Made by a program: the position numbers and the translations under genes. Below the pieces are notes generated by a model. That model worked only from the letters and a program-made list of their open reading frames with translations, made no database searches and had not been told where the DNA came from. DNA of 64,000 nucleotides from Azolla caroliniana (Eukaryota; Plantae; Polypodiophyta): NCBI GenBank assembly GCA_043228905.1, contig JBHGNT010000021.1, positions 4,588,001 to 4,652,000 on the forward strand, in the 5' to 3' direction. Of the stretch, positions 18,673 to 58,779 are shown one piece after another. How positions within the stretch are numbered: position 1 is the first letter of the stretch; the number at the start of each line of letters is the position of its first letter.

Positions 18673-18674
18673 GT

Positions 18675-23372: not shown

Positions 23373-26300
23373 TTATGTCTCTATTGTGGCGGCCCTGACC
23401 ATTTGATCCACTCTTGCCCAAAAAAGGGACCCCGTCAAACACCACATCGTGTGGATGGGGATGACATTTTCTGCCAACAGGAAAACTCCAATGTCCAATT
23501 GCAGTAGGGGCTGTGCATCTGGACCACAAGAGTCGACAATTATGTCATGGGCCCAATCAACCGACTTCCTCGACAACAAGCTTCACGCTTCCGATCACTC
23601 TTCAATTTGGCTCTACCACTCTGAAGGGAAAAGCTTTGTTGGATTCTGGGGCTACGTTGTGCTTTATTGACATCATGTTTGCATGGAAACACAACATTCC
23701 AAGAAACAAAATAACCGTCCCAATTCTAGTTGAAGTGTTCGACGGTCAAACGCTCTCTTCTGGTGCCATCACATATACAACAATTCCTTTGGGTCTCCAC
23801 ATAGGAGCCCACCAAGAAGAAATTACTTTTAACCTCATCACATCACCTTGACATCCTATCATCTTGGGGTTATCATGGCTTGAGAATCACAATCCAGGCG
23901 ATCTCGCTCCATCAACTTCACCTTGAATTTTCACTCACAAGGGATTACATCCACCCTTCTTCGAGCCAATGCTCCACCATTTGTTTGGCTGCCTACTATG
24001 GTGAGGACTGTCTCAATGGTTGCTCCCACTCATGTTTTAGGGACAACTCCCATTTATGCTCTAGTGAGAACCACATCAATGGTTGCTCCGATTCCATTTT
24101 CTGCTCCAGTGAGGACCACGTCAACGGTCTCTCCCACTCATGTTTATGCTCCGGTGAGGACCGGGTTATCGGTCATTCCCATTTCCTCTTCAATGAGAAC
24201 CATGTCAACGATTGCTCTAATAGAAACAACATCGATAGTTAGTTCCGTGTCGGCCTCAGAAACAGTTCCAACTCTTGCTCGGGTAAGCGATATAGTGATG
24301 ATTGCATCCATTTCTAATTCTAAGGACATGGCGGTCATGTCCACTCTAGATACTACTCTATGTACGAGCTCTTTTCCATCAAAATACAATGATTTCTCTG
24401 ATGTATTTGAGAAGAAAAATGCTGATCACCTACCTGAACACGCACATACGATTGTCCAATTGACTTGAAAGATGGTGCTTGTCCTCCATTTCGCCCTATT
24501 TATGGGTTATCTGAACCTGAACTCAAGACCCTCAAAATATACATTGAAGAGAATCTCACAAAGGGATTCATTCGCCACTCAAAATCTCCAGCTGGCTCTC
24601 CTATTCTATTTGTCAAAAAGAAAAATGGAACGTTACGCCTATGTATCGACTATCGTGGGCTCAATTGAGTCACAGTTCGAAACCGCTATCCAGTACCTCT
24701 AATTCTCAAACTCCTCGACCGACTTCGGGCTGGGTGTATATTCTCCAAAATCGATCTCAGAGGCGCCTACAACTTGGTGCATATCAAGCTTGGAGATGAA
24801 TGGAAAACGACATTTCGAACCAGGTATGGGCATTTTGAATACATGGTAATGCCATTTGGTCTCACAAATGCTGCTGCTATTTTCCAGCATATGATGAATG
24901 ACATCTTCCAAGAATATCTAGAACAATTTGTGGTCATCTATCTCGACGACATACTTATCTTCTCACAGGACTACGTAGAGCACACCAAGCATGTTCGACT
25001 TATCTTGTCCAAACTTCGGGAACATGGACTTTATGAGAAACCCGAGGTGTGAGTTTGATCAAACCTCAATTGAATTCCTCGGGTATGTCATTTCATTTGA
25101 TGGTCTCACTACAGACGAGAAGAAAGTCCAAACGGTTCAAGAGTGGGAAGTCCCCACCAGGGTCAAGGATGTGCAATCATTTTTGGGTTTTGCCAACTTC
25201 TATCATCGATTCATTCAAGGATTCTCTACATTGACGCAACCACTTATAGCACTCACTCGGAAGGATTCCCTTTTTGCTGGACTCCTACAACCCAACTAGC
25301 ATTTGAGACACTAAAGAAAACTTTTACCTCGGCTCCAGTACTTCTACACCCAGATCTGACCAAACCATTTACGATTGAAACTGATGCTTCTGACTTCGCC
25401 ATCGGTGCCATTCTCTCTCAATCAGATAACAATGGGATTCTTCATCCTGTTGCCTTTTATTCTCGGTAGTTCACACCTCCCGAGATCAACTACCCAGTTT
25501 ATGACAAAGAACTCTCTGCCATTATTGCAGCCTTTGAAGAATGGCGTCCTTACTTAGCAGGCACCCGACAATGTGTCCAGGTGGTGACTGATCACAGGAA
25601 CCTCGTCTACTTCACATGTTACGAAAATGAGAAGCAAGAGTGGCTGAGATGCAGCGGAAGGACTGTGTGTGTGTATGCACGTAAGGCAAAATAGAGAGAG
25701 AGAGAGAGAGAGAGCTTAAGAGAGATAAAAGATTGTATACTACATTAACCAAAATACTTCCAACAGTAACTAAGTTACAAGGGGTTGGTTTAAATACCGA
25801 CTAAACTAGGGCAAGTGCCCTTTCTACTATTTACAAAACTAGCCTGGTATGACCATGAGCTAGTGTGAAACCTATTACTATGGGAAGTTGAGTTTAATTC
25901 TCAACATGCCCCTTCGAACACAACTTCCATCTGTCGAAAAGTTGTTTTGGTTCGGTCTTCGGAATCCGGCTTCCGACATTCGTAATCCTCGAACTGGATT
26001 GTTCGGCTTTTCGGCTTCGTGCTCGGTTCGATTAACTATGTGTTGCGTACTCACGTTGTTGTGAAGAAAACCGTCCACAAGCGGAATCGGTGCACCGGAG
26101 CGTAGGAACTGGCTCTTCATACACGTGCGCCTTATGTTGTACATAGAAGATCCTCGGTAGGTAGGAAGTTAATAGGAAACGACTCCTTCCTTGCCTATAA
26201 AAGGAGGGAGACAAGGAGGGGAGAGGGATCGGGAAGTAAGGGAGGATGAAGTGCTGTCGGATTGTGGGCCGAAGGCTTCTCTCTCTTCCAAACTCCATAG

Positions 26301-26670
26301 CTTCTTTCTGTGCAGGTTTCGGGAGGCTCGCGCTGCTCTGAGGAATGCCCGAGTGCTTCCGGCAGCACCTCCAACCTACTTCTTCCTTTCTGTACGTTTA
26401 GAACAGGCATCGGCATCTGTTCGCCGGCCTGTTCGGTTGTAACCGACTTCGTGCTTGTTGTTTGTCTTGTTTATATATATTTCGACATACATTCGTGTCT
26501 CTCTGTGTCGCTGTCGCACTCGCGTCTCTGCGTCGAAGGGCCATGTCCCTGTGAATCTACGCTCGCACCTTGTGGGTCTCTTCCCCTCTCCTTTTCTCTC
26601 TTGCTCTTCGGTACAGGACCCCCGAGGTCCTGCCTCATTCCACGCATCCGCGAGGGATACCTCGACATCT

Positions 26671-26688
26671 TGGTGAACCCGACGTGAA
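26671..26688 (+). other. Primer-binding site complementary to tRNA-Trp
   Basis: TGGTGAACCCGACGTGAA equals the reverse complement of the plant cytosolic tRNA-Trp 3' end (...TTCACGTCGGGTTCACCA, recalled); identical in B (41984-42001), C (54178-54195) and D (59402-59419). Confidence 0.85.
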
Positions 26689-26710
26689 GGAGGCGGCAGA
26701 AGAGCAGAAG

Positions 26711-28837
26711 ATGAAGGGGTCGGATCTTGCAGAGGCCATGGCTTTGGCCGTGGATCGGATATTGAGTGCACGCAAGGGCACCGGCGCCCTCGACAGAGCC
26801 ATTGAGGCGGTCGTCGGTACGATCGGCCGGTTCAGCGGAAAGGATGCCACGAAGTATTTGGCGTCCTACGGGGCAGAAATGCTGATGCGGGACATTCCGG
26901 AAGAGAGGCGTCTTGCCGGGTTTCCTCGAGTGGCGATGCCGAGCATCCACGCGGAGGTGCTCGAGGTGCGGACGGAGAGCCGTACCTGGGAGGAGTTCGA
27001 AGGCCGACTCCTAGAAAAATACGGGCTGGACGACGCGCTCCGGCTTTCGAAACGGGACTTCATGGAATGGGTGGAGTTCCACGGCAAGGGAAGAAACGTG
27101 ACGGCACTCCTCCGGGAGTTCGAAGAACGCTTTGCGCGCCTTTCGGCGCTTGACCGAGCCGTTCTGGATACGAGCCGGGTCCTACTGTTCGTCAAGTCGG
27201 TGGACGAGCGGGACCGGGGCCAAGTCGGCTCCTTGCTGGAAACCGAGGACGGGCTGACAACCGACTGGGCTGCGGTTAAGAGAGTCTATGGCCGTTTCGA
27301 TAAACGGCGAGAATGGGCTGACAACGGGGCGGCCGGTGCGGGCTGTGTCACAGCAAGGAGGCTTGAACCGGCACCGCAAGTGCGAAGGGAAGAAACCTGG
27401 GAATGGCTCGAAACCGGTCCGGCTTCGACCGGCATGGTCAATGGCTCGTCCGGAGGAGCAGCGCTGGAGGAGTTGACGCGGGCGATAAAGGATCTCCAGA
27501 TCGCCCAGACTCGAAGGGAAGGCGGCGAACCGGCTTGTGACTGACGGCCGGCAGCAGGGAACAAGTGCATGTGGTGTGACGAGGTCGGCCACATCCGGAA
27601 GGACTGCGGCGATTTCGCAGAAGCGTTGAGGAACCGGGTGGTGTACCTGTGGGAAGGCCGGGTGCACGCCGGCGACACCAGGAGGGCCCTGAACCGAAAC
27701 GACGGGCGAGGAGGAATGAAGAGACTGATGGAAGAGGCAGCGGCCCGACACGTGGAGGCCATCCACTACTCGGCGTCGGCCGACATTCGGGTCGGGGGCA
27801 GCGAGGCCCGAAAGGAGGGCAAAGACGGATTCTGGTCGGCAATGCTGGAAGGTCTTGCCGGCGCACGGCTAAGGAAAGATGAAACGGACCACGCTGAGAG
27901 ACGGGTCCGGGAAATAACCGGGTGGAGCGATCCGGTCGAGGAGAAGACGGGCTTTGTAGAAGCCGCCTGCCGGAACTACGAGGCTCTGGTTGAAGACAAA
28001 CGGGTGGGGAAAGCCGGAGCGGCCGGGCCCTCACAAAGGTACGAGACCCGATTCGGGCAACGACGGAACGATGCCGGTGGGTCCAGCTCGCAAGATAACC
28101 CCAGGAAGGGTGGATACCGATTGGGGACGGAAATAGAAAGGACTACGGATCTACGAAAGGTCCTAGAAGAACGGATCCTCGACAGCAAAGTGGAGCTATC
28201 ATTGCGGGAGGTGCTAGGGATCGCCAAGAAGGAGTTCCACGACTCCATTGTAGACTTGGTGAAACGGAAGAGGCTGTCGACGGAGACGGAACCGGAAAGA
28301 CCGGTAGAGGTGCGAACGACGCACATTGACGACTCGGCGTTGGCAGATGAGTGGGTGGAGAGCCACTATTCGAGGCCACACTGGGCCCGAGCGACCACGG
28401 AGACCCCGGTAAAGATCGGAGATGTTCAGGAACCGGTGGTGGCATTGGCGGACCACGGTTCGGAAATAAACCTGATGTCCATGGACTTCTATAAGAAGGG
28501 GAAGTGGCCGATCAACACCAAGCATGGGTGGAAGATACGGGCGGCGACGCGCGCCACCGAGGAACTGCATGGGGCCTGCCCGAACGTGCGAGTCAAGATC
28601 GGCGACGTCGAGATTGACCAGCACTTCTTCGTACAGGAGACGTCCTCGCACCCGGTCATATTAGGTGAACCATACATCACGATGGCGTGGATGGAGACCA
28701 AGGTGCTAGACAACGGTTCGGCCTACGCGAGGGTCAAAAGCCAAGACGGGCGCCATTCGGTCCAATTTCTGACGGTGCGGCCGAACCACGAGAGAAACCG
28801 CGAATCCCTCGGTGGCGAGAACCGGGAGGATTTTTAG
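26711..28837 (+). pseudogene. Element A gag-protease ORF with one premature stop (27542-27544)
   Basis: ORFs 26570-27544 and 27569-28837 are in the same frame; CCHC knuckle CMWCDEVGHIRKDC; protease-like ALADHGSEINLM...VILGEPY; ends EDF-TAG. Confidence 0.88.
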
Positions 28838-31800
28838 AGAGGGCTGCCAAGGCGTGGGGCCGAGACAGCCTGGACACTCGGAAAAGACCCCACGACTGTA
28901 CGATAGGTGGGAAATTTTGCTTCTCCAACAACGGAGGGTGTATGGTAGTCGGCATCGTCGGCCGAGAAAGGACAAGGGCGGAAGTGCGACTTCGAGCGTG
29001 CGGAGTTCTCGGCCCGAACGAGGAAATCAGCGGAGCCGTGGAGGCGGTCTCCTTCGACGACACCTTGGGAATGCTGAGGAAGGTAGCCGGAGAAGACCTT
29101 AGCGAAGACCGGACGATACCGGTATGTTCCGAAGAGATGTACGAAATCATCGCGAACTTCAGTCGGGGGCTCGGGTCGGATCGGACGGCCCGAGTTAGCA
29201 CGAAGTACAAGACTGTGGACCGGAAGGTAAGGCAAGTCGCGGCACCCTTGCCGGAGGGCAGCGAGTCCCGAATCAGAGGGGTTGCGTCGGACCCCAGTTT
29301 ACGAGATCCGGCCTGCATAGGACACACCTTCACTGACGGGATGCTCCGGGAGCTCAAGATCGGTGGGGGCAGGTTCCTACTGCCGGCGGAGGAAGACCGG
29401 TTTCGGAGAATGCTCGGAAGGCACGGGAAAGCCTTCGCATTTTCACCAGAAGAGATAGGGTGCGTAGACCCGACGATTGTGGAGCTGATGGTGATATTCA
29501 CGGTACCACATGTGCCGTGGAATCTCAAGCCGATTCCAGTACCGAGAGCTCACATCCCGGAGTTGATGGAGTTATTGAGGCAAAAAGTCGATATGGGCAT
29601 TCTCGAACCGTCGAGTGCCCCATACTTGAACCGATGGTTTACCGTACCAAAGAAAAACGGGACATTGCGTTTCATTCAGGACCTGCAGCCGGTCAACAGA
29701 GTGACCATTCGGAACGCAGGAATCGGACCGACCATAGACGAGTTCGCAGAGGCCTTCGCCGGAAGGTCGATTTACTCGGTCGGTGATCTGTACTCGGGGC
29801 ACGACCAGTTCCAGCTAGCCGTGGAGAGCAGAGACATTACGACGATGCGAACTCCCCTCGACCTGGTGCGAATGTGTACCCTGCCATAAGGAGGGACCAA
29901 CTCGGTGGCCCACATGGTGAATGCAATGAACAAGGTACTGAGGGATTGCATCCTGGACATCACCATGCCGTTTCTAGAAGACATCCCGATCAAGGGGTGC
30001 CCGGTGGAAGAGAAGGACGAGACAGTCGGGCCGGACGGATGCCGGCGATTCGTGGCGACACACATTGACGACTGCGAGAAGGTGCTACAAAGGGTAGAGG
30101 ATGCGAGGCTCACCTTCTCCGGGGAGAAATCGGCCTTCGGGCAACCGGAAATCCTGGTGGTCGGACACCTATGTGGACCATATGGCCGGAAGCCGTGTCC
30201 GGCAAAGGTAGAAGCCATCTCCGCGATGAAGACCGACTGTAGCTCGGTTACAGAAGTTCAAAGGTTCCTGGGGGCATGCGTGTTCTACCACATATGGATC
30301 CCGCATTACGCCCACGTTGCGGAGCCGCTATACGGGTTGCTGAAGAAAGGGCGAAAATTCGAGTGGCGAGACGAGCACACGGAGTCGGTCCGGAAGCTGA
30401 AGGAAGCTCTTGCGGCAACACCGGTGCTCCGGAAGGCTGTCTACGAGAAGGGTACCCCGGTATACATAACGGTGGATACCAGTCCGACCGGGATCGGATG
30501 GGTCGTCAACCAAGAAGACGAGGACGACATTCGGTTCCCGATCCGATTCGGCGCGAAGGTCCTCAGCGAGTGACAACGAGGGTACGCCCAGGTTAAACGC
30601 GAACTCTGGGGTATCGTTTCGGCAGTAAAGGCCGACAAAGACTACCTGATCGGGAGAGAAGTGATTATCGAGACGGATTGCCTGCCAATTCTCGGCATGG
30701 TTTCCGGATGCGCGACACCGGACCTGGCGATGCTCAGGTGGATAGCGTACATCAAGTCCCTGGACCCGGAAATACGGCACATTTCCGGAAAGGACAACGC
30801 CATGGCCGACATGCTTTCGAGGGCGAGGTTTCATGACGAGGGCGGCATGGTTTCGGAGGACGAAGAAGTCGGCGTAGACTTCTTCGAGGCAGCGTACGTG
30901 ACAACCAATGGGACGAGCGCTCCGGCACTTAACGACTTCGACGAGAGCAAGTACGACGGCGAGTGGCTCTAGATCGGTGGATTTTTGAGGACGATGACGC
31001 CGGATGCGTCGTGGACGAAGGACGAGGCCAACCGGATCCGGAAGAAAGCTTACTGATTCTTTCTCCGGGACGGATACTTATGGAAGCACCCGAAGAAGAG
31101 GAACGACGTCCCGCTCCGGGTGGTGGCGACGAAGGAAGAACAGGAGGAGCTGCTGACGGCCTACCACGACAGCCCTTGGGCCGGACATCGTGGAACGTGG
31201 GCCACGTTCGAGAAGATAAAGGGGAAGTACTGGTGGCCGGGACTGTACCGGGACGTGCATTGGTTCGTGACAACTTGCGAGAGCTGTCAGATGCACTCCA
31301 TAGTCCGACATCGGGACGAGCTTCACCCTACGTACCCTCCGACCATCCACTTCAAATGGATGGTAGACCTGGTGACGATGCCGATGGGAGTAGGACAGAT
31401 GCGGTATCTAGTCCTGGCTCGGGAAGATCTGACGAACCAGGTGGAAGGCCGAGCCCTTCAGAACAAAACGACCACGGCCGTATGTCGGTTCCTAATTGAG
31501 GACGTGATATGCCGGTACGGGTGCGTCGGGAAGATCGTGGCTGATCGCGGGGAGTTGGACGCCGAAGAGGCCGAGGAGCTGTTCGACCGCCTAGGAGTCA
31601 AGCTCTCGCTTACCACTGCGTACAATCCGGAGGCGAATGGGAAGGTGGAGCACGGACACGGACCGATCGTCAAGGCGTTAGTTCGGGCATGTGGGGGGCA
31701 AGTCGGGAACTGGCCGCGACTGCTGCCTTACACGTTGTGGGCTGACCGAACTACGCACAGTTCGGTAACCGGATTCATGCCGGTAGAGCTGATGTTTGGG

Positions 31801-32301
31801 CAGAAGCCGATCATGCCGATGGAATGTACGATCTCCTCATGGGCAACCGTGGACTGGAGAGTCGAGATGAGCCGGGAGGAACTGTTGACGGCGTGCATAT
31901 GGCAGCTCGAGCGAAGACCGGAGGACGTAGAGCGCGCTACGGAAAAGCTTCGGGTGGCAAGGATGAGGAACAAAGCCCGGTTCGACCGAACGCACCGGCT
32001 CCGACCGAAGAAGATCGAGGAAGACGACTGGGTGCTAGTCTACGACAGCAGCCTCGACAACCAGCACCGAGCAACACGGAAGTTCGCAAGAAGGTGGTTC
32101 GGGCCTTACGTGGTACAAAGCGCCAACGACAACGGGACGTACCATCTGGCGGAGCTCGACGGCATGAGAATGGTGATACCGGTAGCTGGGAAACGGATCA
32201 AAGCATTCAAGAAGCGTCACGACGACGAGCCGGATCCGGATAACCTGGACCGGGACGACGAACGATCCGAAACCGAAGAAGAACCGACGGGCGGGGAATA
32301 A
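28834..32301 (+). pseudogene. Element A pol (RT, RNase H, integrase) in the -1 frame, with 4 premature stops
   Basis: One frame with stops at 29887, 30571, 30970 and 31054; RT GDLYSG..GGTNS..FLED (FLDD in B and D); RNase H VDTSP; integrase HHCC (H..GHRG..CESCQ), catalytic core and GPY motif. Confidence 0.9.
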
Positions 32302-33046
32302 AGGCTGGACCAGTTTTCTCCGTCCCAACTCAATTCGGCGCATACCGGTGGATGCGCGGTTAGGTGGGGGCGGATGTCGTGAAGAAAACCGTCCACAAGC
32401 GGAATCGGTGGATCGGAGCGTAGGAACGGGCTCTTCATACACGTGCGCCTTATGTTGTACATAGAAGATCCTCGGTAGGTAGGAAGTTAATAGGAAACGG
32501 CTCCTTCCTTGCCTATAAAAGGAGGGAGACAAGGAGGGGAGAGGGATCGGGAAGTAAGGGAGGATGAAGTGCTGTCGGATTGTGGGCCGAAGGCTTCTCT
32601 CTCTTCCAAACTCCATAGCTTCTTTCTGTGCAGGTTTCGGGAGGCTCGCGCTGCTCTGAGGAATGCCCGAGTGCTTCTGGCAGCACCTCCAACCTACTTC
32701 TTCCTTTCTGTACGTTTACGAACAGGCATCGGCATCTGTTCGCCGGCTTGCTCGGTTGTAACCGACTTCGTGCTTGTTGTTTGTCTTTTTTATATATATT
32801 TCGACATACATTCGTGTCTCTCTGTGTCGCTGTCGCACTCGCGTCTCTGTGTCGAAGGGCCATGTCCCTGTGAATCTACGCTCGCACCTTGTGGGTCTCT
32901 TCCCCTCTCCTTTTCTCTCTTGCTCTTCGGTACAGGACCCCCGAGGTCCCGCCTCATTCCACGCATCCGCGAGGGATACCTCAACAACGTATCATTGCAT
33001 GTTGCGTAATCGATCAATTGCGTATAGTGTGTGTGTCGCTCGCAGT

Positions 33047-34400
33047 ACTCCCCCTCAAGCTTGGCAATGTGGATGTTGTGAGATCAAGATCTAATGCGAA
33101 TTTCCTGAGCTTGTCGATTCCTAAGGCCTTCGTAAAAATATCAGCAACCTGGAGGTGCATACTGATATGTTGTAGATTGATTACGCCGCCCTATGCGCAC
33201 TCGCCGATGAAGTGGTAGTGCACTTCGATATGCTTAGTACGCGTGTGAAATACGGGGTTTCGCGCCAAGTAGATGCTGCTCATGTTGTCGCAGTATAGGC
33301 AAATAAGATCTTTGATGGGTACACCCAGATTCTTCAGAATACGCTTGAGCCATACGGCTTCGCATGCGGCGACTGCCACGCCCTTGTATTCGGCTTCCAT
33401 GCTCAACAGTGCGACTGTCGACTGCTTCTTAGTGCTCTAGGAGATCGCTCTGTTACCAAGGGAGAAGACGAATCCGGATGTGGAACGTCTATCCTCTTTG
33501 TATCCTACCCAGTCCGCGTCTATGTATCCTTCGAGTCGAATGGTCGTATTTGACTGATACATAATGCCGTAATCCATCATCGTACTGACATATCGGAGAA
33601 TCCTCTTAGTGCAATCGAGATGAAAGTTTCGTGGATTCTGCATGAATTTACTAAGTAGGCCGACCGAATAACTGAGGTCGGGTCGCGTAATGGTGAGATA
33701 GATTAAGTTGCCGATCAATTGACGATACTAAGTTGAATCACACTAGGTTGTGCCGGAATCGGCATCAATCTTGAGATTACGATCGAGAGGGGTAGACACA
33801 GGTTTGTAGTCGGTCATTCCGAACTTGTATAGAAGGTTGAGAATGTAGTGCCGTTGAGAAATCATTATTCCGACTAGTGTCCAAATTACTTCAATGCCAA
33901 GGAAGTAATGGAGCTCGTGCAGGTCTTTCATTTCGAATATACCGGAAAGAAGTGATTTGGCCTTGTTAATCTCGGTGAGATCCTTTCCTCCGAAGACCAA
34001 ATCATCCACGTAAAGGATAATGACAATCTAGCTATCCGACTGGTTTCGGATGTACCGAGAAGTATCGGATTTTGATTTTCGAAATCCGATCTGATGAAGA
34101 TACTGCGTGATCTTCGAGTGCCATGCACGTGGTCATTGTTTGAGGCCGTAGAGAGGCTACTTGAGTCGGCACACGACGTTCAGATGATTACGTGATTCAA
34201 AACCGGGTGGTTGGATCATGTACACCTCTTCCAATTCGCCTTGAAGAAAGGCGTTCTTGATGTCCATCTAGTGGAGGTGTCACCCTTTTGCTGCCGTGAT
34301 TGCAATTACAGTTCGCAAAGTTATCATCTTTGCCACCGGGGCAAAGGTCTCTTCGTAGTCTACGCCATGTGTTTGCGTGTATCCTTTCGTAATGAGCCAT
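33047..34400 (-). pseudogene. Copia F reverse transcriptase/RNase H remnant
   Basis: GYTQTHGVDYEETFAPVAKM, YVDDL, MKDLHELHYFLGIEV, YLTITRPDL, DRRSTSG, KHIEVHYHF; stops and frameshifts. Confidence 0.9.
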
Positions 34401-36336
34401 TGTCGTGAAAATACGACGAGGATATGTGAACTTGAGGCAGGACCCCGGGGCCTCTGACCAGAGGATATCTAATTCGTATGTTTATATTAAACAATTAATA
34501 AAAATAAGAAAGATTAACAAATTTCATTAACAAATAGAAAGAAAGATTACAATCAATCCCAAGATTGGGATTACAAAAGTTTAGTTTATGGAGATTACTA
34601 GAATAATAGATTAAAAGAAACTAAATATGGATTCAATAGAAAATTAGGGTTTTTTGGCTTTGATAAGAGATTATGGTTTATGAGTTCAATAGCTTCCGTA
34701 TGGAAAATTTTGGAATTATGAGAGATATAGCTTCCGTAGGGAAAATTAGAATTAGGTTATATGAGAGATATGGCTTCCATAAGATAAGGGAGCTAAGAAG
34801 GAAAAAAAAATAAAAATATGGAAAGAGAGTATGAGTGTCGGAAAAAAATGGAATTTTGTCTGGAGTTCTCCATTGATCATAGCCTTCAATGTTACTTGCA
34901 TGTCCACTTTTAGTCACATGGCCTCTACGTTTAGTTGCATCCATTTTTAGTTGCATGCAACCGTCCACATGACCTTTACTTTAGTTTTCTTTACTTTACT
35001 TTAATTAGCCACATGATCCTATCATCTATCCGTCTCAATCGCTGCCCATCCAATTCGTCTGGTTTGTGTCCAACCTCATCCGGTCGCTGGTTCCATTCGG
35101 TCACAAGTTCCCGGTTGCCGACTCCGCCCGGTTTCTAGCTCCATCCGATTGCCGATTTCGCTTGTTCCAATTTGCTTACCAGCCGGTTCTAGTTTGCTTC
35201 CCGACCGGTTCTGGTTTGCTTTCCGGCCGGTTCCAGTTTGCTTACCAACCGGTTCCGATTTGCTTTCCGGCCGGTTCCGGTTTGCTTACCGGCCGGTTCC
35301 GATTTGCTTTCTGGCCGGTTCCAGATTGCTTACTGACCGGTTCCGGATTGCTTTCCAGCCGGTTCCGGTTTGCTTTCCGACCGGTTCGGGTTTTGCTTAT
35401 CAGCCGGTTCCAGATTGCTTACCGACCGGTTCCGGTTTGGTTTTTTGGTAACTTGGCCACATTCATCCATCTAGACAAAGTGGCCAAAGTGCTCTTAGCA
35501 CAAATAAAAAATGAGGGATCTCAATGTGGTTATATAGCCAAAGTTTCCTATCTATGTGGGATAAATCATATTTCTATTTTCCCTATCTTCTCAAACTTTA
35601 TGTTCTCATAACTTCCATTTTGTATCTAGTGAAATGCGTTTTAAAGCTCTTGAGTACATCCATCTTTCTATTACAAGCTACTAATCTAATCAAAAATAAT
35701 TATTTCATTATGTTTTTACATAGTTTTCATATCGTGTGTGAAAAACCACACGATATTCACCCCCACCAAACCTGCACATCCACTGGTATGTGCCAATTTT
35801 GGTGAGGCTCCTCTTTTGATTACTTTACTTTTTCATCGATGTACCCGAACTGCCATTGCCATCCGATCCACCATATTCTTCGTTCAGTCTTTGCATTTCT
35901 ATGACCGATTGTCATGGCTCTCTTTGCTCCTCTAGAGCATAATGCTTTGCTCATTATGCATGTGCCACCTTCATCTCGGCCATCTCCTTGGTCATCTAAT
36001 TTTCTTTTATCATTCTTTCTTGTTCCATGCATGCCTTTCGAAGGCCTTATCGAAATACTATTCTTGAGTACTCATAGCAATTTGTTCTTTAGCGGCATGC
36101 TATCCTCTAGGTCCTTAAGTGACCACATTGCCTGCTTCCCACTTTGTCCACTTTTGTGGTATACTCTCGTCTTGGAGTTGACTGACTTCTACACTAGTAT
36201 TATCCTTGTTAGATTTTGTGATCACATCTTTCATATCCGCTTGGCCCACTTGGCCCATATCTTTGCTTGGTCTCTTTGTCGCACACATTAGCTTTTGTCT
36301 TCATGCTTTGCTTGACCTCTTTGTCGCACATATGGA
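34401..36336 (-). mobile_element. E: 3' portion of a Gypsy element related to A-D; long 3' LTR (34401-35755) plus 3' internal region
   Basis: Starts TGTCGTGAA exactly where the Copia RT breaks off; on the minus strand 35756-35810 reproduces the pre-LTR motif of A and C (GCACAT-N8-ATGTGC..GGTTTGGTGGGGGTGAA). Confidence 0.7.
35150..35440. repeat. ~22-bp minisatellite (CCGGTTCCRRTTTGCTTWCCRR-like), about 13 copies, inside the E LTR
   Basis: CCGGTTC recurs every ~22 nt with no unique spacers. Confidence 0.9.
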
Positions 36337-39300
36337 CCACTGGTACCGCTATTCGTGTCCCGTCGAGCTCCGCGAGATGGTAAGTGCCATTGTCGTTTGC
36401 ACTCGTTACGACGTAGGGCCCGAACAACCTCCTCGCAAACTTCCGTGTCGGCTTGTGTTGATTGTCGAGGTTGCTATCGTAAACCAGCACCCAGTTGCCT
36501 TCCTCGATCTTCTTCGGCTGTAGCCAGTGCGTTCGGTCGAACTAGCCCTTGTTCCTCGCCCTCGCCGCGTGCAGCTTCGCCTTAGCCCATTCCACGTCCT
36601 CCGGTCTTTTCTCGAGGTGTCGAATCTGCGCTGCCAACAGCTCCTCCCAGCTCATCTCGTCCTTCCACTCCACCATGGCCCAGGAAGAAATTGTCTGCTC
36701 CACCGACATGATCGGCTTCTGCCCGTACATCAGCTCCGCTGACATGAAACCGGTCACCGAACTGTGCGTAGTTCGGTCCGCCCATAGTGTGTAAGGTAGG
36801 AGCCGCAACCAAATCCCGACTTGTCCTTCACATGCGCGTACTAATGCCTTCACGATTGGCCCGTGCCCACACTCTACCTTCCCATTTGCCTCCGGATTAT
36901 ACGTCGTAGTAAGAGAGAGTTTAACCCCTAATCGGTGGAACAACTCTTTGACTTCCTTCGCATCCACCTCTCCTCAGTCAGCTACTATTTCCATATGCAC
37001 CCGTACCGACATACCACCTCTTCGATTAGGAACTGGCACACAACCGTGGTCGTCTTGTTCTGTAGTGCACAACCCTCCACCTGATTCGTCACGTCCTCTC
37101 GTGCAAGCACCAGGTACTGCATCTGCCCTACCCCCATCGGCATCGTCACTAAGTCTACCATCCACTTGAAATGAACCGTCGGCGGGTAGGCTCGTCTCGA
37201 TGTCGGATCGCGGAGTGCATCTGACAGCTCTCACACGTTACGAATCAGTGCATGTTCCGGTACAACCCCGACCACCAATACTTCTCCTTCAACTTCTCGA
37301 ACGTGCCCCATGTCCCGCGATGTCCGGCCTAGGGACTCTCGTGGTACACCGTTAGCAACATCTCTCACTCTCCCTTTCCTGCCACTACGCGGACTGGGAC
37401 GCCGCCTGGCCTCTTCGGGTGCCTCCATATGTTCCCGTCCCGCAGGAAGAATCGGTGCGCCTTCTTTCGTATCTGGTTAGCCTCTTCCCTCATCCATGCA
37501 GTGTCCAACGTCATCATTTTCAAGAACCTCCTGAGCTGGAGCCACTCCTCGTCGTACTCGCCCTTGTTGAAATCATTAAGTGCCGGAGTGCTCCCTGCCC
37601 TCGTCGTCACGTAAGTTGACTTGAAGAGGTCTACGCTGACTTCCTCGTCCTTTGATACCATGCCGTCCTCGTCGTCGAATCGTGCTCTCGAAAGCATGTC
37701 GTCCATGGCGTTGTCTTTCCCGAAAATGTGTCGTATTTTCGGATTCAGGGACTTGATGTACACTATCCTGTACACGATTCACGATCCACGATTCACCTGA
37801 GCATTTCCAGGTCCGGCATCGCGCATCCTGAAACCATACCGAAGATCGGTAGGCAGTCCGTCTCGATTATTACCTCCGTCCCGATCAAGTAGTCTTTATC
37901 GGCCTTGACTGCCAAAACGATACCCCAGAGTTTGCGTTTAACTTGGGCATATCCCCGCTGCCGCTCACTCAACACCTTCACTCCGAATCAGATGGGACGC
38001 CTTGCGCCACACTTGTCCTCTTGGTTGATCACCCAGCCTATCCTGGTCGGGCTCGGGTCTACCGTTACGTAGATTGGAACATCCTTGCCGTAAACCGCCT
38101 TCCGAAGTGCTGGCGCCGCGGTTAACGCCTCCTTCAATCTACGAACTGACTCTGCATGCTCCTTGCCCCACTCGAATTTATGCCCCTTCTTCAGCAACCC
38201 ATAGAGCAGCTCTGCGTGTAATGCGGAACCCATACGTGGTAGAACGTGCATGTGCCCAGGAACCTCCGCACTTCCGTAACCGACTTGCATTCTTCCTTCA
38301 TTACGGAGATGGCTTCTACCTTCGCCGGAGACAGTTTCCGGCCTTAAGGCCTGCACAAGTGTCCGACCACTAGGATCTCCGGCTGCCCGAAAGCCGACTT
38401 CTCTCCGGAGAAGGTGAGCAACACATCCTCTAGCCTTTGCAGCACCTTCTTGCAGTCGCCGATGTGGTCCACAATGAATCACAGGAAACCATCCAGCCCA
38501 AGCGATTCGTTTTTATCTTCCATCGGACACCCCTTTATCGGGATGTCATCCAAGAACGGCATGGTAATGTTCGGGATGCAGTCCCTCAGCACCTTGTTCA
38601 TCGCATTCACCATGTGCGCAACCGAGTTGGTCCCTCCTTGCGGTAGGGTACACATCTGCAGTAGGCCGAGAGGAGTCCGCATCATCGTGATATCCCTGCT
38701 CTCCACGACTAGTTGGAATTGATCGTACCCTGAGTACAGATCCTTGACTGAATAGATCGACCTTCCAGCGAAGGCCTCCGCAAACTCGTCAATGGTCGAA
38801 CCGATACCTACGTTCTGAATGTTCACCTTGTTGACCGGTTGTAGGTCCTGAATAAAGTGCAACGTGGTTTAGGTCCTAAATAAAGCGCAACGTTGGAATT
38901 GATCGTATCTCGAGTACAGATCCTTGACTGAATAGATCGACCTTCCAGCGAAGGCCTCCGCAAACTCGTCAATGGTCGAACTGATACCTACGTTCTGAAT
39001 GGTGACCTTGTTGACTAGCTGTAGGTCCTGAATAAAGAGCAATGTGCCGTTCTTCTTCGGCACGGTAACCACTGATTCGAATATGGGGCGCTCGATGGTT
39101 CCAGGATGCCCATCTCCACCTTCTGCTTCAGCAGCTCCATCAACTTCGGGATGTGAGCTCTGGGTACCGGAATCGGCTTGAGATTCCACGGCACATGCGG
39201 TACCGTGAAGATAACCATTGGCTCAATGATCGTCGGGTCTACGCACCTGATTTCCTCCGGTGAGAATGTGAAGGCCTTCCCGTACCTTCCGAGCATTGTC

Positions 39301-42300: not shown

Positions 42301-42744
42301 AGCCGACAACAGACCCAACACAGACACTCGCACTCTCACGCACTCAGTGGAGCCCCTGTCGGAAGCACTCAGGCTTTCCTCAAAGCAGAGGCAACCAGCC
42401 AAGAACCTGTAGAGAACAACGATAGAGAAGGAGAAAGCTCAGTTCCTAGTCCGACAACACTCCGTCCTCGCCAAAACGAGATCCCTGTTTCAGCCTTCTC
42501 CCCTCTCTTTTATAGGCCGCCGGGGAGGGCCCTCACATCTTGAATACATCATCTTTATTCTTTGTCCCTTCGGACAAAGATACACATTGATTTCCCTAGC
42601 TAGTAAATGTGTACTACCTAGTATATTTACATCAGCCGACCTATTCCTAATTATGTACAACTTATCAATACTTATGCCCGCGCGTGAGGGCCAGTTCATG
42701 TGCCTTGTTCCTCGATTCCACCAATGCCGGTTTTCTCCACGACA
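36337..42744 (-). mobile_element. B: 3'-truncated Gypsy element of the tRNA-Trp lineage
   Basis: 5' LTR 42006-42744 (TGTCGTGGAGAAAACC...CGACA), PBS 41984-42001, gag ATG 41960, gag-PR stop at 39878, RT FLDD, integrase up to the GPY region; outer flank ACGT at 42745-42748. Confidence 0.9.
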
Positions 42745-44949: not shown

Positions 44950-45322
44950 TGTCATGAACATCAACTCGAATGTGAACCTTAGGCCCTTGTATATATATAT
45001 TTCTCCTAGACAAACTTTAGACTTCAAACCTTTGTATAAAGAGTGGTATGTAGGACTCAATATGTAAGACCCAGTATGTAAGACTCATTATGTAAGACTC
45101 ATTATGTAAGACTCAGTATGTAAGACTCAGTATGTAAGATTCAGTATGTAAGACTTGATATACAAGAGTATGCTTGATATTATAGTATGTAAGACTTGGC
45201 ATGAGCATGCTTATCATGCATCACTACATGTATAAAAAGGGTTGATCTCCCTTGTTAACATCAAGGAGATCAACACTAGTGATGGAATAGATATTTTTAT
45301 CTCCAATTGTTCATCCGTGACA
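44950..45322 (+). repeat. T2 3' LTR containing 8 tandem 14-bp units TATGTAAGACTCAG (45047-45158)
   Basis: Follows chromodomain and PPT; TGTCA...TGACA termini; TATAAAA at 45231. Confidence 0.85.
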
Positions 45323-49035: not shown

Positions 49036-49963
49036 TGTAAAAGAATACGTTGTGCGGAAGCGTGTGCGTAAACACAGAGTATACAGTTCGGAGGAGTAAG
49101 ACAGTTCGGTAAAACACAGAAAACGCAGAGATGGAGATGGAGAGGGAGAGGTAGACAAAGAAAACTCAGATTCAAAATAATGACACTCTGTTCTATGTGT
49201 GTACATACTTCATGCTCAGTAAGCACCTTATATACAAGCCCTGACAATCGGGTTGACACAAGTACTGACAGTACTTGAATGCTCATAAATGAACTCCCAA
49301 ACTTATTCCTTTACGAGGAATAACGCTCTAATGGCCTCTTCGGTTTTCACATCGATGCAGCCCTATTGTGTGTACTTTTTCACGCACCCAGTCTATGCAC
49401 TAGGTTACGCTGCGTACTTCGCACCGAATGTTGAGCTTGTCTCTCAACACTCCCCCTCAAGCTCAACTTGAGGTTCCACTTGCTCCGCCAGATCTACGCT
49501 CCGGTCCCTTCTGGCTTCACACCTCACTTGCACTCCTTGACCCGTTCGATTCCGCGCGCTTCGACTCTTCTGGTCAGCTTGTCAGCTTGTTTGGCCCTTC
49601 TCAGCTCCCTTGCTGTCGCAGTGTCGGTGCGTCCTTCACTGCCCTTTTCTCCGCATGGCCTTTAGCTGATTCGGCGTATCCGAATCGAACATTCTGATTG
49701 AATTGAACACTTCAGATTCAATTCCGCTCTAATCCGAATTGGTTGTCTCCAATTCGTCCTCAATCTTCAAGCCCCTGACAACATCCGACCATGTCTTAGT
49801 CTTGGCCTTATCTCCCCCTGTTTCGGCTGTCCTCGACTTCTTCTCATGCTTACAACCCTTCCTTCCGTCTTTGGCTTCTTCAGCCGGTTCGAAGTCAAGT
49901 TCTCCATCCGACTCCGCATCTCGGTCACTTCCACCGTGATGCTTACCTTCGCTCCTTTCACGT
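49036..49963 (-). mobile_element. H: 3' end of a Copia-like element (3' LTR 49036-49449, PPT 49450-49460, 3' internal region)
   Basis: Minus strand TTGAGGGGGAG|TGTTGAGA...TTTTACA; the same AGCTTGAGGGGGAGT motif ends the Copia F RNase H. No coding domain is visible, so the Copia call rests on the PPT and termini. Confidence 0.65.
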
Positions 49964-52900
49964 TGTCGAGGTTATCCTCGCGGATGCGTAGAAGTCGGGT
50001 AGGACCACGGGGATCTCGAACCAAGGAATCAGGAAAGCGAGGAGGGAGGAGTTTGGGGATCATGTAGGGCTTGAGAACACAAGAGAGCGGGTAAGTCAAG
50101 CGAACGAGAGAGAGTAAGAGAGTCACGCGTAGACACAGACACGGACAAAGTCACTGAGAACAAAGTATGTTAGGTAGAAAGAGTTCTATTAAAACACAGG
50201 TGCACGGTGCTATGAGCAGTTACAGCTAGATCAGAGCCGGTGATGGAGCGTGGAACTTTGGCAAATAGCCAGGTACAAAGAGACGTCGGTGCGCAGAAGG
50301 TCGATCCCTAGGTTGGGAGCACTCGGGTGTCTGACGTGAGCAGGGGAAGCGCCTTCTTCCTCGGTCAGTCCTCGGTCATTCTCTGTGTATCCTTTTTTCT
50401 AGATGGCATTCCGAAAACAGTCAAAGGTCGCCCCTTTTATAGCACAAGGAGCGACCGTTACAAGCATTAATGACCCATCACTTTTTTGTCGTAGATTCTC
50501 TCCTCGTAACTCTCCCTACTTATGCGATGTCTATATCTTCTTTAATGCTCTAACTACCTAGTACCCCTCCTTATACTTATGCCTAGTACTCATCCTATTT
50601 AATTTCCCTCGAGGTGTGCACTCGCGTATACCCATGTTCTCCTGCGCATTTCACCTTGTTTCCGCTTATGGCCCGGAATCTTCACGACATCCACGCCCAC
50701 TAAACCGCACATCGTCCTGTATGTGCCGGATTGCGAATTTGGTGAGGGATTCCGGGCCATCGGTTACTCGTCATCCTCTCCTGAACTGGCGCTTTTAGTT
50801 CCGGGGTTAGGTTCTGCTTTGTTCTGTCTCTTGAAGGCTTTTATCCGCTTTCCAGCCACCGGAGTTGCTACTCGTGTCCCGTCGAGCTTCGAGAGATGAT
50901 ACGTCGCGTTGTCGTTGACGCTAGTTACCATGTACGGTCCGAACCAACGCTTCGCAAACTTACGTGTAGACCTATGCTGGTTGTCGAGGCTACTGTTGTA
51001 GACTAACACCCAATCACCTTCCTCGATCTTCCTTGGCCGGAGTTGGTGTGTTCGGTCAAACCGGGTTTTGTTTCGGAACGTGCGCCTCTTTCACCCTTGC
51101 CGTGGCTCATTCCATGTCTTCCGGTCTTCGCTCAAGTTTCTGGATTCGTGCCGCTAGCAGCTCTTCTCTGCTCATTTCGTTAGACCAATCGATTGCCGTC
51201 CACGAGGCGATCGTTCTCTCAACGAGCATGATGGGTTTTTGTCCGTACATTAGTTCCGCCGGCATGTACCCTGTCACCGAACTGTGGGTGGTTCTGTCCG
51301 CCTATAACGTGTATGGGAGCATCCTCGGCCAGTTGCCGACTCGACCTCCGCACACGCGTACAATGGCTTTTACGATCGGACCGTGGCCCCGTTCAATCTT
51401 TCCGTTTGCCTCCGGGTTGTACGCCGTTGTGAGGGACAGTTTCATGCCTAACCGATCGAACAATTCCTCGGCCTCTTCCGCGTCTAGCTCTCCTCGGTCA
51501 GCCATGATTTTCCCCACGCACCCGTATCGGCATATAACATCCTCGATCAGAAACCTACATACTGACGTGGTGGTCTTGTTTGTTAGTGCTCGTCCCTCTA
51601 CATGGTTGGTTAGGTCCTCTCTAGCCAGCACTAGGTATCGCTTCTACCCTTCGCCCATCGACATCATCACTAAGTCCACCATCCACTTGAAGTGCACGGT
51701 CGAGGAATAAGTCGGGTGTAGTTCGTCGTGGTGCCGAACCACCGAGTGCATCTGGCAGCTTTCGCACGTAGACATGAAGTTGTGCTTGGCCACCAGTATT
51801 TTTCCTTTAACTTCTCGAATGTAGCCCACGTACCCTGGTGTCCAGACCAAGGGCTCTCATGGAACTCCGACATTAGCTTCCGTTGGTCATCCGCCTGCGT
51901 TATTACCTGGAGCGGTGCGTCGTTTCGCCTTTTTGGGACCCTCCAGATTTTCCCGTTCCGTAGGAAATATCGGTATGCCCTCTTCTGGAGCTGTCCGGCC
52001 TCCTCCTTAGTCATCATGGTGTCCATCGTCATTGTCTTTAGAAATCTCCCAATTAGGAGTCACTCCCCGTCGTAGCCGTCTTCGTCGAACTCATTCACGG
52101 GAGGGGCGCTTTGCTCTTTAATCCTTATCCTTACCGATTTGAAGAAGTCTGCGCTGACTTCTTCGTCCTCCGATACCATGCCGTCCTCGTCCTCGAATCT
52201 TGCTCTGGAAAGCATGTCGGCCATGGCGTTGTCTTTACCCGAGATGTGTCGTATCTCCGGGTTCATGGACTTGATGTATGCAATCCACATGAGCATGGCC
52301 AGGTCAGGAGTCGCGCATCCGGAGACCATACCGAGAATCAGCAACCAGTTCGTTTCTATAATTACTTTCGCCCCGATTAAGTAGTCTTTGTTGACCTTAA
52401 CCGCCGAAACGATACCCCACAGCTCGCGCTTGACTTGGGCATATCCTCGCTGTCGTTCACTTAGTACCTTCGCACTAAACTGGATAGGGAAGCGCGTGCC
52501 GTCTTCGTCCTCTTGATTCATGACCCATTCGATCCCGGTCGGGCTGGTGTCCACTGTGATGTAGACCGGAGTACTCAGTGCGTATTCCGCTTTGCGCAAA
52601 GCCGGCGCTGCAGTAAGCGCTTGCTTTAGCTTCCGAACTGCCTCCGTATGTTCCTTCGTCCATGCGAATCTTCTGCTCTTCTTCAGTAGGCCGTAGAGTG
52701 GTTCGACGACGTGTGCGTAATGAGGGATTCATATGTGGTAGAAGGCGCATGCTCCTAAGAATCGCCGGACCTCTATGACGGATCCACACTCCTCCTTCAT
52801 TGCCGAGATGGCCTCTACCTTGGTCGGTGATGGCTTCCGGCCGTACGACCCACATAGGTGGCCAATCACTAATATCTCTTGTTGCCCGAAGAACGACTTC

Positions 52901-54773
52901 TCTCCCGAGAAGGTAAGCCGCACGTCTTTGAGCCTCTGTAGTATCTTTTTGCAGTCGGCAATGTGGTTCGTGAAAAACCTTCGGCACCCGCCCGTGCCGA
53001 TCAACTCATCCTTGATGTCCTCTGGACATCCCTTGATAGCGATGTTGTCCAAGAAAGGCATGGTGATGTCCGGAATGCAGTCCCTCAGAACTCTGTTCAT
53101 AGCATTCACCATGTGTGCAACCGAGTTGGTTCCTCCTTGTGGTAAGGTGCACATCCGAACTAGACCGAGAGGGGTTCGCATTGTCGTGATGTCCCTGCTT
53201 TCTCGTCGTCCATGGCTATCTCATGGAGGAGTGCCGCCCTTACCTCAACCGGCTTCTCGGGCTCCGGTTCCGTTGCGAGACGCTTCCTCTTCACGAGGTC
53301 CACGATGCTATCGTGGAACTCCCTTCTTGCTATGCCGAGCACTTCCCTAAGCGTGAGTTCTATGTAACTGTCGAGAACTCGCTCCTCTAGAACCTTTTGT
53401 AGGTTCGTTGTTTTCTCTATCTCCGAGCTTAAGCGGAAGCTTGGAATCCCGACTATGTTCGTCGGGGGTGGGCCTAGCTCAAGCCACCTCCTCGTTTCTT
53501 CCATTTGGGTTGGCATTGGTTCGGCCCGGATTTTAACAGCCGGTCCGAACGACGAGGACCCCTTTTCTTTCCAGTCCCGGTGTTTCTCAATCCTACTGCA
53601 TACTTCCTTGATAGTCGCCTAGTCAGTCGTGACACCTTGGTTGGTTTCCAGAAGAAGACCCACGCTTTCCCGGACGCGTGAGTCGAACGAACTGACAAAA
53701 AATAGAACCTTGCTCGTTTCGAGCACGGTTCGGTCCAACCTAGAGAGTCGTGCGAACGGTGACTCGAACTCCTGGACGAGCGCAGAAGCGTTCCCAGTCC
53801 ATAAAATCCTTTCTCGATAACTGGAGCGAATCATCGTAGTTGTACCTCTCAAGAACTTCCTCTACGAACTCCGCCCAATCGTGACAGCCCGCTTGTATCT
53901 CGATCATCTCTGTATGGATGTGTGGGGTTACGTCCCGGGGAAACCTCGTTAGCCATCTATCTTTGGGTATGTTCCTCATTTGCATTTCAGATTCATAGGC
54001 CTCTAAGTAGCTCGTGGTGTCCTTTCCGCCGAACCGGCCTATCTTGCCGACTGTTGCCTCTATGGCCCGGTCGAGGGTACTCACGCCCTCGCAAGCACTA
54101 ACCAGGCGGTCTACTGCCACCGCCATCGCTTTTGCAAGTTCGCTTCCTCTCATCTCCAGATTCCTTTGCCGCCCTTCTTCACGTCGGGTTCACCAAATAT
54201 GTCGAGGTTATCCTCGCGGATGCGTAGAAGTCGGGCAAGAGCACAGGGGTCTCGAACCAAGGAATCAAGAAAGCGAGGAGGGAGGAGTTTGGGGATCGCG
54301 TAGGTCTTGAGAACACGGGAGAGTGGGTAAGTTGAGTGAACGAGAGAGAGTAAGAGAGTCACGCGTAGACACAGACACTGACAAAGTCACTGAGAACAAA
54401 GTATGTTAGGTAGAAAGAGTTCTATTAAACCACAGGTGCACATTGGTGTGAGCGGTTACAGCTGGATCAGAGCCGGTGATGGAGCGCGGAACTTTGGCAA
54501 ATAGCCAAGTACAAAGAGACGTCGGTGCGCAGAAGGTCAATCCCCAGGTCGGGAGCACTCGAGCGTCTGACGAGAGTAGGGGAAGCGCCTTCTTCCTCGG
54601 TTAGTCCTCAGTCGTTCTCTGTGTATCCTTTTTTCTAGATGGCATTCCGAAAACAGTCAAAGGTCGCCCCTTTTATATCACAAGGAGCGACCATTACAAG
54701 CATTCATGACCCATTACTTTTTCGTCCTAGATTCTCTCCTCGTAACTCTCCCTAATAATGCGATGTCTATATC
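49964..54773 (-). mobile_element. C: internally deleted Gypsy element of the tRNA-Trp lineage
   Basis: 3' LTR 49964-50689; 5' LTR 54200-54773 interrupted by Copia G; PBS 54178-54195; gag ATG 54153; gag fused to mid-RT at ~53200 (protease and frameshift region lost); outer flank ACGT at 49960-49963. Confidence 0.9.
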
Positions 54774-57700: not shown

Positions 57701-58779
57701 GAGTCGGAGAAGAAGATAATGAACTCCGAGTCGATCGGTAAGGATCTATTCTACGATGAGCAGACCCAACCGGCAAGAGACCGGTTAGCACTCGAGGAAC
57801 TAGCCGGTTACGGTGAGGATACCGAACCGGCAGAAGAAGAAGTAGAGGAAGCTGAAACCTGAACCGACCAAGACTCCGAATCGGATTCGGATGAAGAGCA
57901 AATGGAGGAGCCGGTTATCGAAGCCCAAAGACGGAGATATCCTCTCAGAGACAGAAGGGTCCCCCGGAGATTTCCGGATGTAGAGCATGTGCTGCTAACC
58001 GATGAGGGGGAGCCAGAAAGCTTTGAAGAAGCGAAGGATGACACCCACAACCGCAAATGGTTAACTGCCATGCAGGATGAGATGGATTCCCTACATGAGA
58101 ACCATACGTACGAATTGGTGGAGTTGTCGAAAGGAAAGCGGGCACTCCGAAACAAGTGGGTGTACAAGTTGAAACCTGGAGATGCCGACAACCCCCTGAG
58201 ATACAAAGCCAGGATCGTGGTGAAGGGGTTCCAGCAGAAGAAGGGCGTGGACTTCGACGAGATATTTGCCCCGGTAGTAAAGATGACCTCCATCTGGACG
58301 GTGCTGAGTATAGTGGCAAGCATGGACCTCGAGGTAGAGCAGCTGGATGTGAAGACAACATTCCTTCATGGTGACCTCGAAGAGGAGATCTACATGTAGC
58401 AACCGGAAGGATTCGTGGAGATAGGGAAGGAGCACCTGGTTTCCCGGTTGAAGAAGAGCCTGTACGGACTGAAGCAGGCTCCCCAACAATGGTACCGGAA
58501 GTTTGACTCCTTCATGGCCGATCAAGGGTACCACAAGACGTAGGCCGATCACTGTGTGTTTGTGAAGAAGTTCGAAGGAGGCGACTTCCTGATACTCCTT
58601 CTGTACATGGACGACATGTTGATCGTCGGACGGAACCAAGATAGAATACGGATGCTGAAGAAGGCTCTCAACCGAACTTTCACAAAGAAAGACTTGGGTC
58701 CGGCAAGACAGATGCTGGGGATGCATATCATCCGGAACCGGCCAACGAAGCAACTGTGGCTGTCACAGGAGAAATACGT
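54774..58779 (+). mobile_element. G: Copia element (Tnt1/Tork-like), 5' LTR plus gag-PR-INT-RT, interrupted by D
   Basis: LTR 54774-~55498 with ~40-bp internal repeats; PBS TGGTATCAGAGC (tRNA-iMet) 55501-55512; CFYCGKPGHFQKIC, WVVDFGASFH, integrase LVHID..FIDDH..ELNG, RT WVYKLK..YKARIV..LLYMDDML. Confidence 0.92.
55529..58779 (+). pseudogene. Copia G gag-pol polyprotein remnant
   Basis: Begins MDDSLGGMFKLTGSNY; ORF pieces 55685-56986, 56911-57216, 57284-57862, 57902-58399 and 58556-58779 are separated by stops or frameshifts. Confidence 0.88.

What the first reader, a model, noticed from the sequence alone, without database searches (positions are those of the whole stretch)
26053..58779. 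A Gypsy lineage that integrates at the palindrome ACGT (4-bp TSD)
Seen: four independent insertions with different LTR sequences are each bounded by ACGT. A has ACGT on both sides (26053-26056, 32987-32990), B at 42745-42748, C at 49960-49963, D at 58776-58779. The visible neighbouring bases fit Y-ACGT-R. A given 4-mer is expected about once per 256 junctions at uniform composition, and CpG looks depleted in the host DNA here. Known: plant LTR elements usually make 5-bp TSDs with weak preference, while 4-bp sequence-biased TSDs occur in Drosophila errantiviruses (gypsy, ZAM, Idefix). Inference: the integrase of this lineage is sequence-selective for the G-box/ABRE core. Caveats: only A shows both flanks, and the divergent relative E abuts CCAT (probably CCGT originally).
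Basis: partly seen in the sequence, partly recalled or inferred. Interest (0 to 1): 0.85.

Follow-up and report, generated by a model that had tools for sequence, protein, structure and literature searches.

The report
CG-targeting plant Gypsy retrotransposons (Phygy-like)
These jumping genes, likely from a moss-type plant, almost always sit in a four-letter site with CG in the middle (ACGT is the commonest version, about four in ten), a habit already reported for the moss Phygy family to which they likely belong.

Summary
All four ACGT-bounded junction sets are in the sequence. Element A has a true 4-bp duplication: other copies of its host Copia carry one ACGT at the empty site. The rule is wider than ACGT, though. 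In 63 independent 5' junctions of the same LTR family from public contigs, 60 read NCGN, the other 3 fit decayed CpG, and 26 (41%) read ACGT. The outer bases vary independently (A>C>G>>T, mirrored), and the proposed Y-ACGT-R is not supported (16 of 26, p 0.24). A 4-bp NCGN target, a tRNA-Trp primer site and no extra domain are the published marks of the Phygy clade of Physcomitrella (PMC6317226). So the preference is in print, and the G-box/ABRE link is coincidental. A tree with Phygy references could not be run. What I did not find in print: the graded motif, the 95% CG strictness outside P. patens, kin in Riccia and Ceratopteris, and candidate integrase residues. Whether the integrase reads methylated CG is open.

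The parts
26053..26056 (.). Left target-site duplication of A (ACGT)
   Evidence: empty site with one ACGT in runs X1 and X5
26057..32986 (+). Element A, full-length Gypsy, 6,930 bp; LTRs 26057-26667 and 32375-32986; gag-PR-RT-RH-INT broken into several frames
   Evidence: LTRs 97.9% alike (9 transitions, 3 transversions, 1 gap); Pfam DUF4100, RT_RNaseH_2, Integrase_H2C2, rve
26671..26687 (+). Primer-binding site of A, likely tRNA-Trp (isoacceptor recalled); same 17-mer in B, C and D
   Evidence: exact complement of the plant small RNA miR894 (PMC5846777 table 3)
31057..32301 (+). Integrase frame of A (414 aa): HHCC, D104-D163-E198, SH3-like C-terminus, acidic tail, no chromodomain
32987..32990 (.). 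Right target-site duplication of A (ACGT)
34397..34400 (.). Flank of E (CCAT; likely CCGT before CpG decay), inside a Copia RT frame
34401..36339 (-). Element E, 3' part of a divergent relative: internal tail, polypurine tract, 1,355-bp AT-rich LTR (35755-34401) with a 22-bp tandem array
   Evidence: an E-like LTR in L022 is followed by a decayed copy of the same primer site
36340..42744 (-). Element B: 5' LTR 42744-42006, primer site from 42001, gag-pol cut off in the integrase C-terminus and joined to E; internal duplication 38712-38866/38892-39046
42745..42748 (.). 5' flank of B (ACGT), inside the gag of the host Copia
49960..49963 (.). 3' flank of C (ACGT)
49964..54773 (-). Element C: 3' LTR 50689-49964, internally deleted gag-pol, primer site from 54195, 5' LTR remnant 54200-54773 interrupted by a Copia
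58776..58779 (.). 5' flank of D (ACGT), inside a Copia RT frame
58780..64000 (+). Element D: 5' LTR 58780-59397, primer site from 59402, gag-pol running off the window

Best explanation
A to E are independent insertions of a non-chromovirus Gypsy lineage, likely Phygy, found almost always at a 4-bp site centred on CG, likely because the integrase itself selects that site. Shown: the 4-bp duplication (A), the central CG in 60 of 63 outside junctions, outer bases A>C>G>>T mirrored as T>G>C>>A, so ACGT is the commonest single site (41%). Inferred from foamy-virus integrase: a 4-bp stagger needs a sharp bend at a central pyrimidine-purine step, and T is avoided at the first position. Inferred: because TA, CA and TG are just as much YR steps and are nearly never used, CG must be read base by base, most likely by the conserved C-terminal loop (Gln336, His337, Lys342), with the unusual Glu166 of the core as a second candidate. 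Untested: whether methylation of that CG helps or hinders.
For:: 121 matches to a 19-base LTR-start pattern; 65 family 5' junctions (63 after removing 2 duplicates), 30 preceded by the polypurine tract, 26 not family. NCGN 60 of 63 against 3.4% background (P 5e-84); ACGT 26 of 60 NCGN against 6.3% (P 5e-16); 0 of the 26 non-family matches have ACGT and 6 have NCGN; 3' junctions, 22 after dropping 2 of 24 rows, give NCGN 19 and ACGT 11. CG is 14% of YR steps in the flanks but 60 of 63 sites (P 5e-47); empty site of A; two other LTR lineages in the window have 5-bp duplications without CG. Phygy 4 bp (100% of 186), NCGN, tRNA-Trp 81%, no extra domain; no chromodomain or archaeal RNase H in the window frames or in 5 of 5 close full-length homologues scanned; closest solved structures are Ty3 and foamy-virus integrase; central YR and T avoidance in retroviral 4-bp sites. 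Gln336 in 55 of 55, His337 48 of 56, Lys342 54 of 55, Glu166 52 of 57.
Against: No tree with reference Phygy sequences was possible, and A (6,930 bp) is shorter than the published Phygy range (7,656-9,968 bp). The outside junctions come nearly all from one series of metagenome assemblies whose host is not known to be the window's, and the pattern selects young A/B/D-like copies, not C or E. Of 9 outside contigs with both LTR flanks, only 2 had identical flanks and 1 more matched up to CpG decay; 6 differed. That is close to random pairing (0.22 expected identical), and in 2 checkable cases only one flank matched a Copia, so these look like chimeric assemblies or recombinants and give no duplication length. 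The 4-bp length rests on A alone. One 3' flank (L043, TCCA) does not fit. The residue candidates rest on conservation only: the model (pLDDT 72, pTM 0.61) does not place the domains as in an intasome (rmsd about 25 A full length).
Confidence: 0.82

Rival explanations
1. The integrase, or a partner, reads methylated CG, so the element is steered into DNA that is already silenced.
For: The centre is CG and no other YR step. All five window insertions lie in other LTR elements; 23 of 62 outside flanks of 60 bases or more hit retroelement proteins. The integrase has no chromodomain to steer it.
Against: No methylation data were available. CpG observed/expected around the sites runs from 0.18 to 1.29, median 0.74, like the flank background. 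The genome's repeat share is unknown, so nesting may be chance. ZAM-group elements use CGCG in Drosophila (PMC5408687), an animal with next to no CpG methylation (recalled), so CG reading needs no methyl group.
Confidence: 0.12
2. The integrase recognises the ACGT palindrome as a unit (G-box/ABRE core), or is tethered by a bZIP/bHLH factor bound there.
For: ACGT is 7-fold enriched among NCGN sites (26 against 3.8 expected); 4 of 5 window sites; C is the commonest base before the site (24 of 63).
Against: 37 of 63 sites are not ACGT. The outer positions are independent (26.0 expected, 26 seen). No pyrimidine bias before ACGT (16 of 26, p 0.24). A factor sitting on the site would be expected to block the cut (inference).
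Confidence: 0.04
3. The pattern is an artefact: the four letters belong to the LTR end or arise from selection of copies.
For: 6 of 9 outside contigs with both flanks have unequal flanks; the search favours young copies.
Against: The four letters vary (14 different 4-mers), are absent at primer-site and polypurine junctions, were not part of the search pattern, and stand once in the empty site of A.
Confidence: 0.02

Closest known systems
Phygy clade, non-chromovirus Ty3/gypsy of Physcomitrella patens (Neumann et al. 2019, PMC6317226; passages, section 9 and Additional file 5 read)
   Same: 4-bp duplication, NCGN target, tRNA-Trp primer site, no chromodomain or archaeal RNase H, coding region filling the interior, frequent nesting in other LTR elements (PMC6911290, passages).
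   Different: A is 6.9 kb, under the 7.7-10.0 kb range. The paper gives only NCGN; here the outer bases are graded with ACGT at 41%. It called the clade species-specific; here kin are named from Riccia and Ceratopteris, and Phygy was also annotated in the liverwort Apopellia (PMC12885004, passages).
TatI subclade (PMC6317226, Additional file 5)
   Same: 4-bp duplication and tRNA-Trp primer (75% of 4 elements).
   Different: TatI has an archaeal RNase H in all members; none is found here. No sequence preference is listed for it.
Selgy clade of Selaginella (PMC6317226, Additional file 5)
   Same: Short non-chromovirus with 4-bp duplication (96%).
   Different: tRNA-Ala primer (90%), about 5 kb, no target motif listed.
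Drosophila errantiviruses gypsy, ZAM, Idefix (PMC5408687, passages)
   Same: Palindromic 4-letter targets (TATA, CGCG, ATAT) chosen by sequence.
   Different: Insect lineage, envelope-bearing or derived from such, with different LTR ends; central steps differ. A working analogy, not kinship.
Prototype foamy virus integrase (PMC4422553, passages and section 14)
   Same: 4-bp stagger, central YR step, T avoided at the first position; best structural match of the model.
   Different: Its preference is weak and accepts any YR; here it is 95% CG. Small neutral residue at Ala188, against Glu at the aligned place here (one-residue gap nearby).

Membership tests
Phygy | Falls in the Phygy clade in RT, RH and INT trees | not testable with these tools
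   The reference FASTA and the per-element table were too large to read. The tree (32 rows that I chose from about 240 homologues) puts A and C in a 23-row clade (100/96) with Riccia and Ceratopteris proteins, apart from the fungal Phenoliferia rows, but holds no named Phygy.
Phygy | 4-bp target-site duplication | tested here: met
   Element A, both flanks and empty site. One element only; outside contigs with both flanks were not usable.
Phygy | NCGN target motif | tested here: met
   60 of 63 5' and 19 of 22 3' junctions; 4 of 5 in the window, the fifth CCAT.
Phygy | tRNA-Trp primer-binding site | tested here: inconclusive
   The same 17-mer follows the 5' LTR in A, B, C, D and complements a CCA-ended plant small RNA, miR894. 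That the tRNA is Trp is recalled; no tRNA gene in the window.
Phygy | No chromodomain, no archaeal RNase H, no extra ORF | tested here: met
   Pfam on window frames and on 5 close full-length homologues; A's integrase stop lies 73 bases before the 3' LTR.
Phygy | Size 7.7-10.0 kb (descriptive range in P. patens) | tested here: not met
   A is 6,930 bp. The paper calls size of little weight for classification, so I do not treat it as defining.
TatI | Archaeal RNase H domain | tested here: not met
   No RVT_3 hit.
Selgy | tRNA-Ala primer site | tested here: inconclusive
   The primer site is read as Trp from recall, not from a call; NCGN is not listed for Selgy.
Chromoviruses (Tcn1, Galadriel and others) | Chromodomain after the integrase | tested here: not met
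   None in A or close homologues.

The most novel reading that the evidence does not exclude
An old lineage spanning liverworts, mosses and ferns carries the most sequence-strict plant LTR integrase, and it reads methylated CG directly through a lineage-specific C-terminal loop: a chromodomain-free way to land in silenced DNA, and a natural CpG- or methylation-guided integration enzyme.
Probability: 0.12. Interest if true: 0.75.

Novelty: new member of a known kind. Interest (0 to 1): 0.3.

Why it matters
Most plant LTR elements take 5-bp sites with little sequence choice, and Phygy is the one published exception. This finding is very likely another member, so the headline is not new. It still adds a counted motif (95% CG centre, graded edges), shows that the rule holds in a high-copy family outside P. 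patens, and names residues to test. How an integrase picks CG over other flexible steps, and whether methylation matters, seems untested: searches turned up the NCGN statement only in PMC6317226 and no mechanism. Practical use: LTR finders set to 5-bp duplications will miss these elements.

Tried and rejected
No own genome is held, so the genome-wide logo and the far ends of C and D could not be read. A primer-site scan of viral contigs gave 6 chance phage matches with no retroelement protein hit. Laying contigs on the whole 3' LTR did not list the junction loose ends. Outside contigs with both LTR flanks were rejected as duplication evidence. Y-ACGT-R and ACGT as a unit were rejected. A generic YR-bending explanation alone was rejected (CG 60 of 63 against 14% of YR steps). 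B and E as one element was rejected: their LTRs do not match and B's integrase breaks off at 36339; one deletion that also took the middle of the host Copia explains the join (inferred). A one-residue deletion at the Ala188-like place, suggested by the alignments to Ty3 and foamy virus, does not appear against nearer outgroups, where Glu stands against Ser or Pro. The Atlas search with a Riccia homologue gave only generic Gypsy integrase clusters. The structure model did not reproduce the intasome domain layout. No earlier findings were returned. PMC7466625, PMC9002660 and PMC8282616 (passages) held nothing on the target site.

Full report
Observation. All five coordinates read ACGT and touch an LTR end. 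A is a full-length Gypsy at 26057-32986 with LTRs 97.9% alike, a primer site at 26671 and RT-RH-INT order. B (42744-36340, minus) is cut off in its integrase and joined to the 3' part of E (36339-34401), whose LTR does not match B's. C (54773-49964, minus) has its 5' LTR interrupted by a Copia, and D starts at 58780 and leaves the window. A, B and E sit in one Copia (25617-43243): B in its gag, E in its RT, A in its 3' untranslated part. Contigs of 2 of 3 runs laid show the host Copia with A's left flank joined to a single ACGT, so A's duplication is 4 bp. Two other LTR lineages in the window have 5-bp duplications without CG.

Wider test. Matches were sorted by likeness of the following 101 bases to the window LTRs; the cut was set in a gap of the scores after I had seen the list, flanks included. 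That gave 65 family 5' junctions, 30 junctions preceded by the polypurine tract and 26 non-family matches, one of them (L088, flank CTGG) borderline and left out. After removing 2 duplicates, 60 of 63 flanks read NCGN and the other three (ATGG twice, CCAT) fit CpG decay. ACGT was 26, ACGG 9, GCGT 6, CCGT 5, ACGC 4, CCGG 3. First position A42 C12 G8 T1, last position A3 C6 G15 T39. Background in the same flanks is 3.4% NCGN and ACGT 6.3% of NCGN (P 5e-84 and 5e-16). The 3' junctions agree: of 24 rows without a primer site I dropped L080 (a primer site with a longer spacer) and L078 (duplicate), leaving NCGN 19 of 22 and ACGT 11 of 22, with CCAT, CTGC and TCCA as the rest. The outer bases are independent, there is no pyrimidine bias before ACGT, and 4 or more of 5 ACGT in a window has P 0.10 at the family rate. 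Against: 6 of 9 contigs with both flanks of one LTR have unequal flanks, about what random pairing gives, and look chimeric. The sample is nearly all from one series of assemblies of unknown host.

Identity. The integrase has unnamed environmental kin up to 89% identical and named kin in Riccia sorocarpa and R. fluitans (about 50-68%) and Ceratopteris richardii (51-54%); the next named relatives are fungal, about 34%. A tree of 32 chosen rows groups A and C with the liverwort and fern proteins (100/96). The element is held by DNA runs of three coded organisms and leaf metagenomes, with very high summed depth at the LTR. A non-seed plant host, likely a moss or liverwort, is inferred from these kin, the plant-type primer site and a Tcn1-like neighbour; it was not determined.

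What is known. Neumann et al. [quoted passage not shown] TatI and Selgy also make 4-bp duplications but differ by an archaeal RNase H or a tRNA-Ala primer. The elements here match Phygy in duplication length, motif and domain content, are shorter, and could not be placed in a tree with Phygy references. Additional files 1 and 3 of that paper could not be read; they bear on membership and on whether ACGT is also the commonest Phygy site. Jedlicka et al. 2019 (PMC6911290, passages) saw GC-rich centres in 4-bp duplications and Phygy nested in Tcn1.

Mechanism. The closest solved structures are Ty3 and foamy-virus integrase. For retroviruses with 4-bp duplications a central YR step is unstacked and T is avoided at the joining base (PMC4422553). 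Both fit here and explain much of why ACGT leads. They do not explain CG alone: CG is 14% of YR steps in the flanks but 95% of sites. I infer base reading by the integrase. Candidates are the C-terminal loop after the WVLVY strand, where Gln336 (55 of 55), His337 and Lys342 are conserved and where I recall foamy-virus Arg329 to lie, and Glu166 (52 of 57), which aligns near Ala188, a place held by small neutral residues in retroviruses. Ala188 contacts bases outside the duplication, so the loop is the better candidate. This is conservation only; the model does not dock DNA. Reading of methylated CG is not excluded, but nothing here tests it, and local CpG content around sites is unremarkable.

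Verdict. A real, strong target preference, but for NCGN with ACGT as the commonest form, and already in print for Phygy. New member of a known kind; interest 0.3. The open and testable point is how the integrase reads CG and whether methylation guides it.

Noticed in passing
window 26671-26687, 42001-41985, 54195-54179, 59402-59418: The primer-binding site is the exact complement of the plant small RNA miR894, first reported in moss and mapped to gypsy repeats (PMC5846777). It is likely a tRNA 3' fragment that could silence these elements.
   Followed up: partly
window 18181-23372: Tcn1-like Gypsy element, LTRs 95.6% alike, 5-bp duplication TTATG, no tRNA-type primer site after the 5' LTR.
   Followed up: partly
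window 25617-43243 (minus): One Copia took three insertions of this lineage (A, B, E); its middle and the ends of B and E are missing, likely through one deletion with a join at 36339/36340.
   Followed up: partly
window 34401-35755 (minus); L022:1-1010: E's LTR is twice as long as A-D's, AT-rich, with a 22-bp tandem array (35142-35472); only the ends and the tract before it resemble the family. L022 holds an E-like 5' LTR with the primer site and a family insertion about 40 bases behind it.
   Followed up: partly
window 38712-39046: Tandem duplication of about 155-180 bp inside the RT of B, copies 92.9% alike.
   Followed up: no
run X11 laid on window 32300-33100: A contig joins an LTR end to an LTR start through ACGC: a head-to-tail pair separated by one NCGN site.
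   Followed up: no
P0227 (distant homologue): A relative just outside the clade carries a PHD finger at the end of its integrase, a possible chromatin-reading module in place of a chromodomain.
   Followed up: no
window 54774-58779: A Copia with a tRNA-Met primer site (55501) sits in C's 5' LTR and itself holds D in its RT: three levels of nesting.
   Followed up: partly
window 27545-28837, 60757-61452: The gag-protease region carries DUF4100, also seen in Riccia homologues; a possible marker of the lineage.
   Followed up: no
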